Source: the human T2T-CHM13v2.0 reference genome, Homo sapiens. Taken from it: a stretch of 64,000 nucleotides of DNA. How positions within the stretch are numbered: position 1 is the stretch's first letter; each line of letters starts with the position of its first letter. The position numbers and the translations under genes were made by a program. Below, piece by piece: positions 26,871 through 33,800 of the stretch. The stretch is from NCBI RefSeq assembly GCF_009914755.1, contig NC_060925.1; one strand, given 5' to 3'. The notes under the pieces were generated by a model. It saw only the letters and a list, made by a program, of their open reading frames with translations. It was not told the DNA's origin and made no database searches.

Positions 26871-29800
26871 GATACTACTTGTGGGTCTGTCATACATGGC
26901 TTTTGTTATGTTGTGGTATGTCCCTTCTATATCCAGTTTTTCGAGGTTTTCTTTTATCATGAAAAGATGTTGAATGTTATTAAATGCTTTTTCAGAATCA
27001 ATTGAAATGATCATATGGTTTGGATCCCTCATTCTGTTAATAAGATGTATCACACTGATTGACTTGCATATGTTGAATCATTCTTACATTCTTGGGATAG
27101 ATCTCACTTGGTCATGATGAATGATCTTTTAAATATATTGTTAAATTCTGTTTGCTAGTATTTTGTTGAGGACTTTGCATAAATGTTCATCAGAGATATT
27201 GGTCTGCAGTTCTTGATGTGTCTGTCTGGTTCTGGTATCAGTGTAATACTGGCCTTGTAAAATGAGTTTGAAAGTATTGCCTCCTCCTCTCTTTTTCTGA
27301 ATAGTTTAAATAGGATTGGTATTAGTTCATTAAAAATTTGGTAGAGTTCAGTTTTGCAGCCATTGGGTCCTGGGATTTTCATTACTGGGAGACTTTGTAT
27401 TATTGCTTCAATCTCATTACTTCTTACTGTTCTTTTCAAGTTTTGGATTTCTTCATGATTAAATCTTAGCAGGTTTTATGTGTCTAGGCATTTATTAATT
27501 CCTTCTAGATTTTCCAATTTATTGGCATATGGTTGCTCATAATGGCTCTGATTATCCTTTAAATTTTTGTAGTATCAGTTGGAATGCATCCTTTTGTATC
27601 TCTGATTTTTAAATTTGGATCTTATCTCTTTTTTCTTAGTCTGGCTAAAGGTTTGGCAATTTTGTTTATCTTTTCAAAAAAACAACTTTTTGTTGCATTG
27701 ATCTTTTTTATTGTTTTCTTCATTTGAAATTCATTTATTTCTGCTCTGATATTTATTATTTCTCTATGCTAATTTTGGATTCAGTTTGCTCTTGATTTTC
27801 TGGTTCTTTAAGATGCATCATTAGGTTAGTTATTTGAAACTTTTCTTCTTTTTGGATGTAGGCTTAAGCTATAAATTTCCCTCTGAGTACTACTTTTGCT
27901 GTACCCCTTAAGTTGTGTTATGTTGTGTTTTCATTGTCATTTGTTTCAAGACATTTTTCAATTTCCTTCTTAATTTCTTCACTGACCCACTGGTCATTCA
28001 GAAGCATATTGTTTAATTTCCATGTGTTTGTATAGTTTCCAAATTTTCTTTTGTTATTAATTTGTAGCTTTATTCCATTGTGGTTTAGCATTTTTTTGTA
28101 GGACAGGTTTGATGTTGATGAAATCCCTCAGCTTTTATTTGTTTGGGAAGGTCTTTATTTCTCCTTCAGGCTTAAAAGACATTTTCATCAGACATACTAT
28201 TCTAGAATAAAAGTTATTTATTTATTTATTTATTTATTTTTTCCTTTAGGGCTTTAAATATTTCATAGCACTCTCTCCTGGCCTATAATGTTTCCATGGA
28301 AAAGTCTGCTTCCAGGCTTATTGAGGCTGCATTGCATGTTATTTCTTTCTTTTCTCTTGTGCTTTAGGATCCTTTCTTTATCCTTGACCTTTGGAAGTTA
28401 GTGACTGTTAGTTGCCTTGAGGTAGTCTTCTTTGGGTTAAATCTGCTTGGTGTTCTATAACCTTCTTGGAGTTAACTGTTAACATTTTTCTCTAGGTTTG
28501 GGAAGTTCTTTGATATTATCCCTTCAAATAAACTTTCTACCCCATCTCTTTCTCTACCTCCTCTTTAAGGCCAGTTACTCAGATTTGCCCCTTTGAGGCT
28601 ATTTTCAAGATCCTATAGGTGAGCTTCATTGTTTTTTATTCTTTTTCCTTTTGTTTCCTCTGATTGTATTTTCAAGTAGCCTATCTTTAAGCTCACTAAC
28701 GCATTCTTCTACCTGATCAGTTCTAATGTTAAGAGACTCTGATGCATCCTTCAGCATGTCCATTACATTTTCAACTCTAGAATGTCTGCTTGATTTTTAA
28801 CATTATTTCAATCTCTATTAAATTTATCCGATTGAATTCTGAATTCCTTCTCAGTGTTATCTTGATGGAAGCACCCCTATGACACCCACTACTGGGACTG
28901 CACTGGGTCAGACCTGAAGCCATTACAGCACTGGGCCTTGCCCAAGGCCCTTCTGTTGAGGGTGGCAACTTCCTCTAGTTCCTGGGTGTGTCCAGATGCC
29001 ACACCCTGGGAACCAAGGTTTGGGGTTAAAACCCTTAGCTGTTTACCTGATATTCTATACTACTGCCACTAAGGTGGCACTCAAAACCACAATACAAAAT
29101 CCTTCCCATTCTTCCTGCCCCTGTTGACAGGCAGAGGAGCTTCTCCCTGTGGCCAGCACAACCACCAGTCCACAGGAGGTTCTTCTAGGCCACCACCTAT
29201 GTTCACTTAAAGTCCAAAGTCTCTTCCGTAAGCTTGTGGTGAATGCTGCCAGGCTAGCAACTCACCCGTCAGGGCAGTGGGCTCCCCTCTGGCCCAAGGC
29301 AAGAGCAGAAATACTGTCCAAGAGCCTAGGCCTGGACTTGGGGAACCCAATATCCTGCTTGTTGCTCTACCCAACTGTGACTTCACTGGTACCTAGGATG
29401 CAACACAAAGTCCCCTTTGCTTTTCCCTCTGCTTTTCTCGAACAGAAGGAGTCTTTCACCATAGCCACCACAGCTGTGAACGTGCTGGGTCACCCCTGAA
29501 GTCTGCATGTCTCAGGGCCCAAGGCCCACAGTATACTCCATGGGTATCACTGCTGGTTATTTAGAGCCCGTGGGTTCTTCAGTTGGTAGATGATGAATCT
29601 TACTAGGACTGGGTACTTTCCTTAAAGGTAGCAGATTCCCTTTTGGCCCAGGGTGTGTCTAGAAAAGTTGTCTGGGAGCTAGGGCCTGGAATGCGGGCCT
29701 CACAACTCTACCCCATGCCCTATCCTACTGTGGGTGAGCTGGTATCAAAGATGCAAGACAAAGTCCTCTTTACTCTTTGCTCTCATTTCCTTAAAGAGAA

Positions 29801-30183
29801 GTTTTGGTTGCTCTGAGCTGCGCTGCCTGGGGTTGAGGGAGGGATGGCACAAGCACTCCTTTAGCCTCACCAGCTGGTTTCTCCCTAGGTAATATGTCAC
29901 CTTAGTTCACTTGCTCTAAGCCCAGGCTAGCACTAAGAATTGCCTAGGAATTACAGTCCTTGTGTCCTAGACTGCCTTTCAAGTTTACCTAGGACCCTAG
30001 AGTGCTTTAGCCCTCAGTTGTAAAGCTTGCCAAGAAACTCAAGTTCTGATTGCTGGGTTGGGCAATTTCCCTCTGGCTAGGACTGCTCCAAATGCTTCCT
30101 CTGTGCGCAAGGGTTGTGGCTGAGCCCAACATGGTTTTGCTCTTCACTGTGACAGGGAAGCACTGAGTTCAATGTAAAGTCCC

Positions 30184-30374
30184 TCCAAGTGATCCTCCTG
30201 AGTAGCTGGGACTACAGATGTGCGCCACCATGCTTGGCTAATTTTTTTGTATTTTTTATAGAGACAGGGTTTCGCCATGTTGCCAGGCTGGTCTCAAACT
30301 TCTGGACTCAAGCAATCTTCCTGCCTTGACCTCCCAAAATGCTGAGATTACTGTTGTGAGCCACTGTGCCCGGG
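30184..30374 (-). mobile_element. Partial AluJ (3' part lost)
   Basis: Left arm and part of right arm, antisense, abutting the truncated L1 5' UTR. Confidence 0.85.
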
Positions 30375-30424
30375 CAATATCTATGTCTTTGGTAAATTTC
30401 TCACTCATATCCTGAATTGTATTT

Positions 30425-30856
30425 GTTTATTTATTTATTTATATTTTTTATGACCTGCCACTTCAGGAAGGGCTTCTTTATACCTCAAGAAAATAAGACA
30501 TTAAAACAACAACAATGCTTTTCCGAACAACCACAATAAAATTTTCTTTATTCATTTCATTAAGTCCTATTAAGTTAATTTCTGTTCTGCTGGATCTTGG
30601 ATTAAAAGTCTCATAAATCCTGGGCCTAGTGGTGCACGCCTGTAATCCCACCTACTTGGGAGGCTGAGGTGGGAGGATTTTTTGAATTCAGGAGTTTGAG
30701 ATCAGCCTGGGCAACATAATACGACCCTGTCTTGTTCTGTGGGCTATACAGGCTTCTGCTTCTGGAGAGGCCTCAGGAAACTTACAATTATGGTGGAAGG
30801 CAAAGGGGAAGCAAGCACGTCTTACGTGGGTGGAGCAGGAGAAAGAGAAAGAGACG
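30425..30856 (-). pseudogene. Processed retrocopy of a spliced chimeric transcript (MST LTR exon + antisense Alu-monomer exon + 3' exon + poly(A))
   Basis: TSD gaattgtattt (30414-30424) / gaattgttctt (30857-30867); degenerate A-tail 30425-30450; MST piece stops at its splice donor; Alu piece starts at the usual antisense-Alu acceptor. Confidence 0.75.
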
Positions 30857-33800
30857 GAATTGTTCTTCTAATTTTTTGTATTTTTCTGTATTCTCTTATA
30901 TCTCACCGAGCTTCTTTAACATTATCGTTTTGAATTCTTTTTCCAGAATTTCATAAATGTGTTGTTCACTGGGATCTATTGCTGGAGATTATTATGTTCC
31001 TTTGGAGGTATAATAGTTCCCTGTTTTTTTCATGTTTCTTTGTCCTTATGTTGATATCTATGCATCTGGTGTAGCAGTGGCTTCTTCCAATTTTTTGAAT
31101 CTTCTTTCATAGGGGAGGTCTTTTTCCTCAATATGTATCTATAGTGTTAGTTGGGTAGAGCATTTTGGCTTTGATTCTAAGTGCATGCAGTAGGGTAGTC
31201 TCTGTATGATTTCTTTGGCTGTAAACAGCATCAGTGGTACCTTTGATTTCCTCAGTGACTTAGGTGTGGTTGCTAGTGGCAACTGTGGTGAAGTTTTTCT
31301 GGAGACTGGGATGCCAGATGAGCCAGTCCTTGGGCCCTAGTGGTGACAGTGGTGAGCTGGACATGCCAGTAGCTGGGCCTTAGGGTGGTATATGTTGGCA
31401 GCAGCATTAATGGGTCCAACTGGGTTGATTCTCGGGTTTCCAGGCAACTTGCTTGGGTGTCAGTAGTGACAGTGGTGGGCAGGGCCAGTGGCTGGGTTCT
31501 TGGTCCCCTGGGCAGCCTGCATGATGTGAGCAGTGGTAGTAGCAGTGGTAGAACAAGCCTTTGGTTCTGATGTGGTCTGAACTGGTGTTGGTACTGGTTA
31601 TGATGAGCAAGGTGGGCTAGTTCCCAGGTCTGCAGATAGTATGTGCAGGTGGGTGTCTGCTATGGCAGTGGTGGCAGGGTGGGTGGGCCCAATCTCAGGC
31701 CCTGGAAGGAGTGCTTAGGTACCAATGATGATACACCAGGCTGGACGATCCCCAGACCTCTGAACAGCATGCTTAGGCACTGCAGAGTTGGAGCCAGGTT
31801 GCAAGAGCCTGTCCTCACGACCCCCAGTGGTGTGTGCAGGTACTGGCTATGGTAGGCAGGGGAAGGTTAATCCTCAGGTCCCTGGCAGAATGCTTGGACA
31901 GGGGCAGCAGTGCCTGTGCTGGAGTCCTGCTACTGGACAGATGGGGTTGCTTTCAGTGGCAGCAGTTGTAGGCAGGTGGCTGGAAAGCATGCACTTCCCT
32001 CATGTTTTGAATCTAGCAGTGGAAGCCCATAGCAGCAGTGGCTGCAGGCAGGTGAGTCTGTTCTCAGGGCAAGTGAAAATGCATGGTGACTCCACTGCTG
32101 GGGGAGTCAGGTTAACTGCCAAGGGCTTAAGCTTTGGTACTGGTGGCAGCAGCCAGCCACAGCAGTGGCTGCAGGCAGGAGGTATCAACAGGGCTTCAGG
32201 GATGTGGAGACGTAGGGGCTTTGGAGCTCCAGGGCAGGATGCAGTTAGGCGGGGCCAGGCTCTCAAAATGACACCTTCCTGTAGCTACTTAGAACTCAGT
32301 GGGTATGTGAGGTGCAGCACAATCTCCCTCTCTGGAGCAATGCTTTTCTGTAGTCTCCACACAGCTTCCCATGTTAGTCTCAGGGCCCAGGAGGATTGAA
32401 GGGATCACCTGTGCTAGGATTTCAGGAGTCCATGGTGGGAATGTGGACCACTGGGGATTTCATACCTTTTTCCCACAATGGACAGCCTCTCAAGGCTCAT
32501 AGCCAATCCTGGCCAAGCAGGCTGCCTCCCTTTCCACTTCTTTCTTGCTTTAGGTGTTTCCTCTCAGTTCTTTGTTGAATTTCAGTGTTCTCTGTTAGAT
32601 GATCTATTCAAAGAGTGATTATCTACTCACTATTTTGGTTCTTCTTTGTGGAGAAGACGGGTGCCAGATTCCTCTAGTCAGCCGTCTTGAAGACCTCCTC
32701 AACATATGCTTTTATCTCTTGTGAGTATGTACCTAGGAGAGGAATAGCTGGACTGTGTGACTCATTGGTCATAGATGTTCTCCTTTTAAGAAGCTGCCAA
32801 ACTATCTTCTGAAATGGTTGAACCACTTTACGTTCTCATTTGCAGTTTACAAGATTTCCAGTTCCTCCTCATCCTCAACAACACTTGGAGCAGCAAATCT
32901 TAGTAATTTTTGCTAGCCTAATGTAGTGTGTAATGGTACCTCATTGTGGTTTTCATTTGAATATTTCTAATGACTAACGATGATGAGCAACTTTTCATGT
33001 GCTTATTTGCCATCTTTTTTGTGAACTCTGTTTAAATCATTTGCTCGTTTCTTAATTGGGGTATCTGTTTTCTCACTTTTAAGTATTGAGAGCTCTTTAT
33101 ATATTCTAAATTTAAGTCTTTTGTCAGATACATACTTTGAAAATATTTTTTCATGGTTTGTGGCTTTGAAAGTCTGTGGCTTTAAAAATGTCTTAAAATA
33201 GCAGAAGGTTTCAATTGTGTTAAAGTATAATTTATCAATTTTTTCTTTTATGGATTGTGCTTCTGGTGTTCATAGTTAAGAAATATTTGCCTAACCATAG
33301 GTCACAAAGATTGTCTCATGTATAATCTTCTATAATTTGTATAGTTTTAGGATTTACATTTAGGTATATAATGCATTTTCTTTTAAATTTTATATGCAGT
33401 GCAAGGCATGGATGGAAGTTTATTTTTGCATATATATATATATCTCCAATTGTTCCAGCACCATTGTTAAAAAAAGACTATCCTTTTCCCACTGAATGGA
33501 CTTTGTGCCTTTCTTGAAAATTAGTTGACCATATATGTGTGGATTTATTTCTAGATTCACAGTTTTGTTCCATTGATGTATTTATTTGCCTTTACACCAA
33601 TAGCACACTGTCTTGATTATTTTGGCTTTATAATAAATGTTGAATCAGGTACTGTTACTCTTCTAACTTTGTTTTTATTTTTCTAAATGATTTGACTTTT
33701 CTAGATAATTTGTATTTACATATGAATATTATGATTAGCTTGTTTATTTTTAAAAAAAATAAAGCTTGCTGGGATTTTGAATGGGATTGGTAAATCTATA

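What the first reader, a model, noticed from the sequence alone, without database searches (positions are those of the whole stretch)
30414..30867. Fossil cDNA of a spliced, LTR-initiated chimeric transcript (MST exon > exonised antisense Alu > 3' exon > poly(A))
Seen: L1 ORF1 breaks at gaattgtattt (30414-30424) and resumes at gaattgttctt (30857-30867), forming a TSD. On the minus strand the ~430-bp insert has four parts: (i) 30855-30733, only the R-region part of an MST LTR, ending ...CAGAACA where the consensus has CAGAACC|GTGAG; (ii) 30732-30620, an antisense Alu monomer starting at AGACAGGGTC, just after the TTTGTAG acceptor, which is absent, and ending CCCAG; (iii) about 170 nt of unrelated sequence with a TATAAA variant signal (30482-30477); (iv) a decayed A-tail (30450-30425). 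Established: MaLR LTRs act as promoters and first exons in mammalian oocytes and early embryos via this internal donor, antisense Alus exonise at this acceptor, and L1 proteins retrotranspose spliced mRNA with TSDs. Inference: this is a retrocopy of a three-exon, largely TE-built germline transcript, which repeat annotation would show only as unrelated fragments. The minus-strand G at 30855 may be cap-derived. Such copies would be a searchable record of ancestral LTR-driven germline transcripts.
Basis: partly seen in the sequence, partly recalled or inferred. Interest (0 to 1): 0.8.

Follow-up and report, generated by a model that had tools for sequence, protein, structure and literature searches.

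The report
Retrocopy of a spliced LTR-Alu transcript
A 430-base insert inside an old L1 element looks like the reverse-transcribed copy of an ancient spliced RNA that started in a retroviral-type LTR and spliced into a backwards Alu; it is a neat fossil, but of a known kind.

Summary
An old L1 on the minus strand is interrupted in its ORF1 region. Eight other copies of this L1 run straight across the site, and GAATTGT is duplicated on both sides (7 exact bases, or 10 of 13).

Read on the minus strand, the insert has four parts:
- An MST-like MaLR LTR piece, 30856-30733. It lacks about 180 nt of U3 and the last about 70 nt of the LTR. It stops where 18 genomic copies continue with a CpG-decayed C|GTGAG.
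- An antisense Alu left arm, 30732-30620. It starts exactly behind the T-rich ...TAG that 38 of 45 other Alu left arms carry.
- About 170 nt ending in TATAAA.
- A decayed A-tail 27 nt further on.

Best reading (about 0.72): an L1-made retrocopy of a spliced, LTR-initiated, all-repeat transcript.

- Part iii is not unique sequence. It is a fragment of an old repeat of about 1 kb, with at least 176 candidate copies.
- The Alu/part iii junction is the Alu's natural 5' end, not a splice. The RNA therefore had two exons, not three.

No parent locus was found, and neither age nor expression could be tested here. This is a new member of a known kind, of modest interest.

The parts
30857..30869 (-). 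5' target-site duplication (in insert orientation). 30857-30863 is exact. The 13-nt version matches its partner at 10 of 13.
   Evidence: both flanks align to the same positions of 8 uninterrupted L1 copies. One search shows overlapping alignment of L028 to both flanks.
30733..30856 (-). Exon 1: MST-like MaLR LTR fragment running from near the presumed start site to the LTR's internal GTGAG donor. U3 (about 180 nt) and the last about 70 nt of the LTR are absent. 30733 (A) mismatches the C/T of the copies.
   Evidence: 85-90% identity to many copies; alignment with 18 copies, hexamers after the break; GTRAG positions.
30620..30732 (-). Start of exon 2: antisense Alu left arm. It begins directly behind the position of the T-rich ...TAG acceptor and runs to the Alu's natural 5' end.
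   Evidence: Rfam RF00017, E 2.2e-10, model ends 1-299; 38 of 45 left arms have AG just before the aligned first base, with a mean of 11.3 of 15 pyrimidines before it.
30451..30619 (-). Rest of exon 2: fragment of an old interspersed repeat of about 1 kb. It contains an unused AATAAA (30552-30547) and the TATAAA signal that was used (30482-30477).
   Evidence: copies at 67-76% identity that extend beyond part iii on both sides; at least 176 candidates, unit of about 1.03 kb in L024.
30427..30450 (-). Decayed poly(A) tail, now an (AATA)n-like tract. It starts 27 nt after TATAAA.
   Evidence: (TRF period 4, 30420-30451).
30414..30426 (-). 3' target-site duplication.
30376..32692 (-). Host: old L1 (5' UTR and ORF1 region) on the minus strand, same orientation as the insert. 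The insertion site is in the ORF1 coiled-coil part.
   Evidence: 75-80% identity to 39 other copies; PF02994 in the homologous frame of L028; L028 aligns to 32692-30863, then to 30432-30377.

Best explanation
The insert is an L1-mediated retrocopy (a processed, non-coding 'pseudogene') of a two-exon RNA built entirely from repeats.

Proposed steps:
1. Transcription began in a sense-oriented MST-like MaLR LTR, a little downstream of its TTTAAAAG-like motif.
2. The LTR's internal C|GTGAG donor was spliced to the T-rich ...TAG acceptor in the left arm of a downstream antisense Alu.
4. L1 ORF2p nicked the ORF1 region of an old L1, probably at TTCT|AA on the + strand. It primed on the poly(A) tail, copied the RNA to or near its 5' end, and left a 7-13-bp target-site duplication.

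Because the copy is inherited, the source RNA must have been present in germline or early-embryo cells.

Shown: single-event insertion, TSD, tail, signal, and breakpoints at the family-wide donor and acceptor positions.
Inferred: splicing itself, the start site, the Alu-in-old-repeat source structure, the cell type, and an old (tens of Myr) age.
For: - Host continuity and TSD: 8 L1 copies are continuous across the site, with GAATTGT duplicated.
- One-sided A-rich tail 27 nt after TATAAA.
- LTR fragment: only the segment between a point 23-24 nt after the TTTAAAAG-like motif and ...AGAAC is present. In 18 copies the next hexamer is CATGAG in 6, TGTGAG in 2, CGTGAG in 2, TATGAG in 2, and six other forms once each. 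This is the CA/TG/CG pattern of a decayed CpG in front of GTGAG.
- Alu: 38 of 45 left-arm copies have AG directly before the insert's first Alu base, preceded by a mean of 11.3 of 15 pyrimidines.
- Chance estimate (my arithmetic): about 3 GTRAG sites in about 190 nt of LTR, times 9 pyrimidine-preceded AG sites in 320 nt of Alu, gives roughly 4e-4, or about 1e-3 allowing 1 nt of slack.
- Only one full-length copy exists in the genome, so this is not a repeat family of its own.
- Papers, passages read: MaLR LTRs carry splice donors near their 3' end (PMC5538554). MSTA-initiated spliced transcripts occur in human and macaque oocytes (PMC6908575). 77 left-arm versus 313 right-arm antisense Alu exons are known, and more than 95% of the left-arm acceptors lie in a narrow window (PMC2639721).
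Against: - No parent locus was found. The whole insert matches only itself at full length. Part iii finds only family members at 76% identity or less. The 18 best LTR loci hold no part iii within 1.5 kb. The best Alu match (88%) has an unrelated flank.
- The base at the junction (A, 30733) matches neither the C/T of the LTR copies nor the Alu.
- Two other GTAAG motifs inside the LTR fragment, one of them GTAAGT, were read through.
- The 5' end lies 23-24 nt behind the TTTAAAAG-like motif in a gapped alignment. This is shorter than the usual spacing of about 30 nt, and the CT-rich region is indel-prone, so 'starts at the TSS' is only approximate.
No repeat library was available.
Confidence: 0.72

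Rival explanations
1. One reading: a three-exon RNA in which the Alu is an internal exon ending ...CCCAG, spliced to a separate third exon (part iii).
For: The junction reads CAG|G, which resembles a typical exon-exon join. The parent is unknown, so its structure is open.
Against: - The junction coincides within about 2 nt with the Alu's natural 5' end.
- Two Alus shown in full continue with CC or GC, not GT, after the matching ...GCCC(A/G)G: the dimeric Alu in L014 and the window's own neighbour, which ends near 30375. How many of the 45 left arms do so was not counted.
- The old-repeat family has AGAT, not AG, before the first base of part iii in 5 of 5 copies (4 of 4 informative rows).
- The flank TT|AAAAGTCTCATAAATC on the Alu's sense strand looks like an ordinary Alu target site (inference).
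Confidence: 0.13
2. A reverse-transcriptase template-switch (or RNA-ligation) chimera. L1 ORF2p copied a polyadenylated Alu-containing RNA and then jumped to a separate LTR-derived RNA. No splicing was involved.
For: One unexplained base (A, 30733) sits at the junction, and such chimeras often carry extra bases (recalled). Chimeric L1-mediated insertions with TSDs are well documented (PMC13174262, passages).
Against: - A switch would be expected to land on the 3' end of the second RNA. Here the LTR piece ends at the GTGAG donor position, about 70 nt before the LTR end and before its ATTAAA-type signal.
- The other side ends at the Alu acceptor. A coincidence on both sides is about 1e-3.
Confidence: 0.06
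3. No splicing: either a retrocopy of an unspliced RNA from a locus where an earlier DNA deletion or rearrangement had already joined the pieces, or purely DNA-level nested insertions and deletions inside the L1.
For: No parent was found, so a contiguous source cannot be excluded.
Against: - A single TSD and a single tail bracket the whole composite, and the L1 is otherwise continuous. This rules out piecemeal insertion at this site.
- A deletion in a source locus would have had to end exactly at a GT and an AG.
- U3 is missing, as expected for RNA starting in the LTR.
Confidence: 0.07

Closest known systems
L1-mediated processed pseudogenes / retrocopies of spliced Pol II transcripts
   Same: TSD, 3' A-tail behind a polyadenylation signal, loss of an intron at GT/AG positions, absence of the promoter (U3), and insertion at an A/T-rich nick site.
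   Different: The source is non-coding and made only of repeats (LTR, Alu, old repeat). Repeat annotation would show it as three unrelated fragments. No parent gene was identified.
LTR-initiated transcripts (LITs) from MaLR LTRs in oocytes and early embryos (PMC5538554, PMC6908575, PMC6102241)
   Same: Starts inside a MaLR LTR and uses the LTR's own 3'-proximal splice donor to reach a downstream acceptor.
   Different: Here only a DNA fossil exists. No RNA evidence, tissue or parent LTR is known. PMC6102241 was seen only in a search listing.
Antisense Alu exonisation, left-arm class (PMC2639721, PMC2330237)
   Same: Uses the AG behind the T-rich tract at the 5' end of the antisense left arm.
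   Different: No Alu-internal donor is used. The exon reads through the Alu end and becomes a terminal exon with a polyadenylation site in flanking repeat DNA.
HERV-W-type processed pseudogenes made by L1 (PMC5016936 and PMC5537654, abstracts in listing only)
   Same: An LTR-element RNA starting at R is copied by L1, with TSD and A-tail.
   Different: There is no internal retroviral sequence and no 3' U3-R. The LTR supplies only a first exon of a chimeric RNA.
Spliced gene/L1 chimeric insertions and template-switch chimeras (PMC13174262)
   Same: A composite insertion formed in one TPRT event, with cis-splicing before retrotransposition as one documented route.
   Different: No L1 sequence is part of the insert. 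The poly(A) end comes from an ordinary Pol II 3' end.
SVA-like composite retrotransposons (recalled)
   Same: A composite of an LTR-derived piece and an antisense Alu piece, possibly assembled by splicing and mobilised by L1.
   Different: Single copy. No VNTR and no evidence of amplification.

Membership tests
L1-mediated processed retrocopy | Target-site duplication flanking the whole insert, with the host sequence continuous when the insert is removed | tested here: met
   8 L1 copies are continuous. GAATTGT is duplicated (7 of 7 exact; 10 of 13 for the longer version).
L1-mediated processed retrocopy | Poly(A) tail at the 3' end, preceded by a polyadenylation signal | tested here: met
   the A-rich (AATA)n-like tract at 30449-30425 starts 27 nt after TATAAA (30482-30477). 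The signal is a variant, and a canonical AATAAA 100 nt upstream was not used.
L1-mediated processed retrocopy | Intron loss: junctions at GT...AG positions of the source | tested here: met
   Judged against family copies, not the parent. The LTR copies continue with decayed C|GTGAG (18 copies). 38 of 45 Alu left arms have a pyrimidine-rich ...AG before the first base. There is one mismatched base at the join.
L1-mediated processed retrocopy | An identifiable intron-containing parent locus | tested here: not met
   no candidate found. Search sensitivity is limited (word-based first look, and expected parent identity of only about 75-85%).
L1-mediated processed retrocopy | L1 endonuclease-type nick site (TTTT|AA-like) | tested here: inconclusive
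   with a 13-nt TSD the + strand nick is TTCT|AA (5 of 6 matches). With a 7-nt TSD it is TTGT|TC.
LTR-initiated transcript (MaLR LIT) | 5' end at the LTR's transcription start, with U3 absent | tested here: inconclusive
   about 180 nt of U3 are absent. The start lies 23-24 nt after the TTTAAAAG-like motif in a gapped alignment of an indel-prone CT-rich stretch. No start-site data for this family were available.
LTR-initiated transcript (MaLR LIT) | Use of the LTR's 3'-proximal splice donor | tested here: met
   plus the PMC5538554 passage that MaLR LTRs carry donors near their 3' end.
LTR-initiated transcript (MaLR LIT) | Expression in oocyte, embryo or germline | not testable with these tools
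   No RNA data. Only the logical point that a heritable retrocopy needs germline or early-embryo RNA.
Alu exonisation (internal Alu exon) | Acceptor AG behind the poly-T of an antisense arm | tested here: met
   The position window given in PMC2639721 fits by my own approximate coordinate conversion.
Alu exonisation (internal Alu exon) | Donor inside the same Alu arm | tested here: not met
   the sequence reads through ...ACAGGCGTG... to the Alu's end and continues into flanking repeat DNA.
Template-switch chimera | The 5' partner is joined at the 3' end of its RNA, in sense orientation | tested here: not met
   the LTR piece stops at the donor position, about 70 nt before the LTR end.
Composite retrotransposon family (SVA-like) | Multiple full-length copies in the genome | tested here: not met
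   of the 40 of 5048 candidates that were scored, these gave 45 matches, and only the locus itself matches all 405 nt. All other matches cover only the LTR part or only the Alu part.

The most novel reading that the evidence does not exclude
This insert may be one visible example of a hidden class: TSD-flanked retrocopies of LTR-initiated, repeat-only germline transcripts that repeat annotation breaks into unrelated fragments. Mined across primate genomes, LTR fragments that start at R and stop exactly at the internal donor would give a dated fossil record of which MaLR LTRs drove spliced transcription in ancestral oocytes and embryos. They might also show how composite elements such as SVA were first assembled.
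Probability: 0.25. Interest if true: 0.6.

Novelty: new member of a known kind. Interest (0 to 1): 0.3.

Why it matters
This single locus has no evident function. No gene is annotated in the window, and the insert is a decayed fossil inside a dead L1.

Its value is as an example. It shows that an LTR-driven, Alu-terminated non-coding RNA was spliced and present in germline or early-embryo cells of an ancestral primate, and that L1 archived it.

All the mechanisms involved are established: L1 trans-mobilisation of spliced RNA, MaLR donors, and Alu acceptors. The idea that retrocopies record past germline expression is also established. A specialist would find this tidy rather than surprising. 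A genome-wide catalogue of such fragments could be a modestly useful resource.

Tried and rejected
- Parent-locus searches in the window's own genome all failed. The whole insert matched only itself at full length. Part iii alone gave 6 candidates, 5 of them family copies at 69-76%. Local BLAST of part iii against 34 family loci gave nothing above 76% over more than 100 nt. BLAST against 18 LTR loci with 1.5-kb flanks gave only chance hits.
- The best Alu match, L014 (88%, sharing some unusual bases with the insert's Alu), is a dimeric Alu inside an L1 3' end. Its flank is unrelated to part iii, so it was rejected as the parent.
- A sequence-only covariance model of the part iii family could not be run on this genome. 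A family member was used as a DNA query instead.
- Idea: part iii is MaLR internal sequence, so the source was one full-length element. Rejected: only 4 distinct loci of 34 have an MST-like LTR nearby, at inconsistent positions and orientations.
- Pfam on window ORFs around the site gave nothing. ORF1 identity came only from a better-preserved copy.
- Homology between 27500-30190 and 30868-33000 was tested and none was found.
Full report
**What is there.** On the minus strand, the stretch 30869-30414 reads as follows:
- a short direct repeat;
- an LTR-like piece;
- an antisense Alu arm;
- about 170 nt ending in TATAAA (30482-30477);
- 27 nt further on, an A-rich tract now decayed to an (AATA)n-like array. 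TRF reports it as period 4 at 30420-30451;
- the direct repeat again.

**The host and the duplication.** The right flank (30868-31400) matches 39 other places in the window's own genome at 75-80% identity, so the host is an old L1 family.
- The left flank (30376-30420) aligns to those same copies immediately next to the right flank.
- In a multiple alignment, 8 copies run uninterrupted through ...CCTGAATTGTTTTTCTGATTTC..., while the window carries GAATTGT on both sides of the insert.
- Copy L028 aligns to window 32692-30863, then to 30432-30377, with about 15 overlapping bases, and further on to 28166-28092. The host is therefore a long L1 on the minus strand, in the same orientation as the insert.
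- In L028 the homologous site lies about 60 codons into a 209-codon open frame that hits the L1 ORF1 RBD-like domain (PF02994, E 1.3e-7) and, weakly, the trimerisation domain.
- The duplication is 7 bases exact. If it is 13 bases (10 of 13 identical), the + strand nick would be TTCT|AA, close to the L1 endonuclease preference. This last point is inference.

**The LTR piece.** The whole insert matched only itself at full length. Of the 44 other matches, 39 covered only the LTR part (within query positions 1-128, 84-90% identity) and 5 only the Alu part (40 of 5048 candidates were scored).
- I aligned 18 of these copies with their flanks. They are elements of about 375 nt with TG...CA ends.
- The insert contains only the segment from 23-24 nt behind a TTTAAAAG-like motif to ...AGAAC. 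About 180 nt of upstream LTR and about 70 nt of downstream LTR are missing, including the family's ATTAAA-type signal.
- Directly after the break the 18 copies read CATGAG (6), TGTGAG (2), CGTGAG (2), TATGAG (2), and six other forms once each. The CA/TG/CG mixture is the signature of a decayed CpG in front of GTGAG, so the break is at a donor-type site.
- The base at the join (A, 30733) matches neither the C/T of the copies nor the Alu.
- Two further GTAAG motifs inside the fragment were not used.
No repeat library was available to test it.

**The Alu piece.** Rfam's SRP model matches 30619-30735 on the + strand (E 2.2e-10, below the gathering score, as expected for an Alu monomer).
- I collected 45 other Alu left arms from the window and the fetched loci. 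In 38 of them the two bases before the insert's first Alu base are AG, preceded on average by 11.3 pyrimidines in 15. These are the ...TTTTAGTAG / ...TTTTGTAG ends of the linker.
- The Alu therefore starts exactly at an acceptor position.
- Taking single real copies, there are about 3 GTRAG sites in about 190 nt of LTR and 9 pyrimidine-preceded AG sites in 320 nt of Alu. By my arithmetic, both breaks falling at such sites by chance is about 4e-4, or about 1e-3 allowing one base of slack.

**The third part is a repeat, and its junction is not a splice.** Part iii (30619-30451) found five diverged relatives (69-76%).
- A family member used as a query found at least 176 candidates.
- In L024 the unit is about 1.03 kb, interrupted by an Alu, and copies extend beyond part iii in both directions.
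- It is not MaLR internal sequence. Only 4 of 34 distinct loci have an MST-like LTR nearby, at inconsistent positions.
- At the ii/iii boundary the Alu has reached its natural 5' end to within about 2 nt.
- The family reads ...AGAT, not ...AG, before the first base of part iii (5 of 5 copies; the 4 copies that reach it).
- On the Alu's sense strand the flank reads TT|AAAAGTCTCATAAATC, an ordinary-looking Alu target (inference).
- The simplest reading is that an Alu had inserted into this old repeat in the source locus, and that parts ii and iii are one terminal exon. That gives two exons, not three.

**Mechanism.** An RNA started in the LTR, used the LTR's 3'-proximal donor, and spliced to the antisense Alu left-arm acceptor. 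It ended at a TATAAA-directed poly(A) site in the old repeat, and was then copied by L1 into another L1. Each step has precedent in passages I read:
- MaLR LTRs carry donors near their 3' end (PMC5538554).
- MSTA-initiated spliced transcripts exist in human and macaque oocytes (PMC6908575).
- Antisense Alu left arms supply acceptors in a narrow window: 77 left-arm versus 313 right-arm exons (PMC2639721).
- L1 inserts spliced and chimeric RNAs with TSDs (PMC13174262).

**What speaks against it, and what stays open.**
- No parent locus was found. The search is word-based, and a parent of this apparent age may be only 75-85% identical, so absence is weak evidence. It does leave a contiguous source unexcluded.
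- The junction base is unexplained.
- The 5' end is only approximately at a presumed start site.
- The proposed cap-derived G is the second base after the TSD, not the first, and cannot be judged.
- Age (probably tens of Myr, judging from the decayed tail and TSD), orthologous empty sites and RNA evidence could not be tested with the tools at hand.

**Rivals.**
- A three-exon version (0.13).
- A template-switch chimera (0.06). This is disfavoured because the LTR piece ends at the donor rather than at an RNA 3' end.
- An unspliced copy of a pre-joined locus, or DNA-level nesting (0.07). This is disfavoured by the single TSD and tail and by the GT/AG coincidence.

**Novelty.** This is a new member of a known kind: a processed retrocopy whose source happens to be an LTR-initiated, repeat-only non-coding RNA.
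- My two searches on this point found no catalogue of such repeat-only, LTR-initiated retrocopies. The searches were made; I read listings and abstracts, and passages of one paper. This does not show that none exists.
- The idea that processed pseudogenes record past germline expression is already in print. One search lists papers citing 'fossilized footprints'; I saw the listings only.

Interest is modest (0.3).

Noticed in passing
window 31300-32700: This G+C-rich stretch (53-57%) is the 5' UTR region of the host L1: copy L028 aligns to window 32692-30863. The RefSeq 'enhancer' at 32072-32696 therefore lies inside an old L1 5' UTR.
   Followed up: partly
window 30190-30375: A second Alu, on the minus strand, ends at its 5' terminus at about 30375, only about 40 nt from the insert. 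It lacks its 3' part and tail. The host L1 does not resume at 29900-30190 (no hits) but only near 28166. So about 2 kb of other material (28200-30376, partly G+C-rich) interrupts ORF1 there.
   Followed up: partly
L014:1501-1613 (G000 C7:130236740-130236852): This dimeric Alu left arm is 88% identical to the insert's Alu. It shares several unusual bases with it (for example ...CTGATCTCAAACTCCTGAATT...). That suggests a common minor Alu lineage, but the flank is an L1 3' end, not part iii.
   Followed up: partly
L024:897-2270 and about 30 other loci (L022-L026, L043-L071): An old interspersed repeat of about 1.03 kb with at least 176 candidate copies at 67-80% identity. There are no obvious TG...CA ends or tail at the unit borders. 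The family was not identified.
   Followed up: partly
window 30552-30547 (minus strand): A canonical AATAAA lies 100 nt upstream of the A-tail and was evidently not used. The tail follows the weaker TATAAA instead.
   Followed up: no
window 30809-30820 and 30770-30780 (minus strand): Two GTAAG motifs inside the LTR fragment, one of them GTAAGT, were read through rather than used as donors. The same motifs are present in several genomic LTR copies.
   Followed up: no
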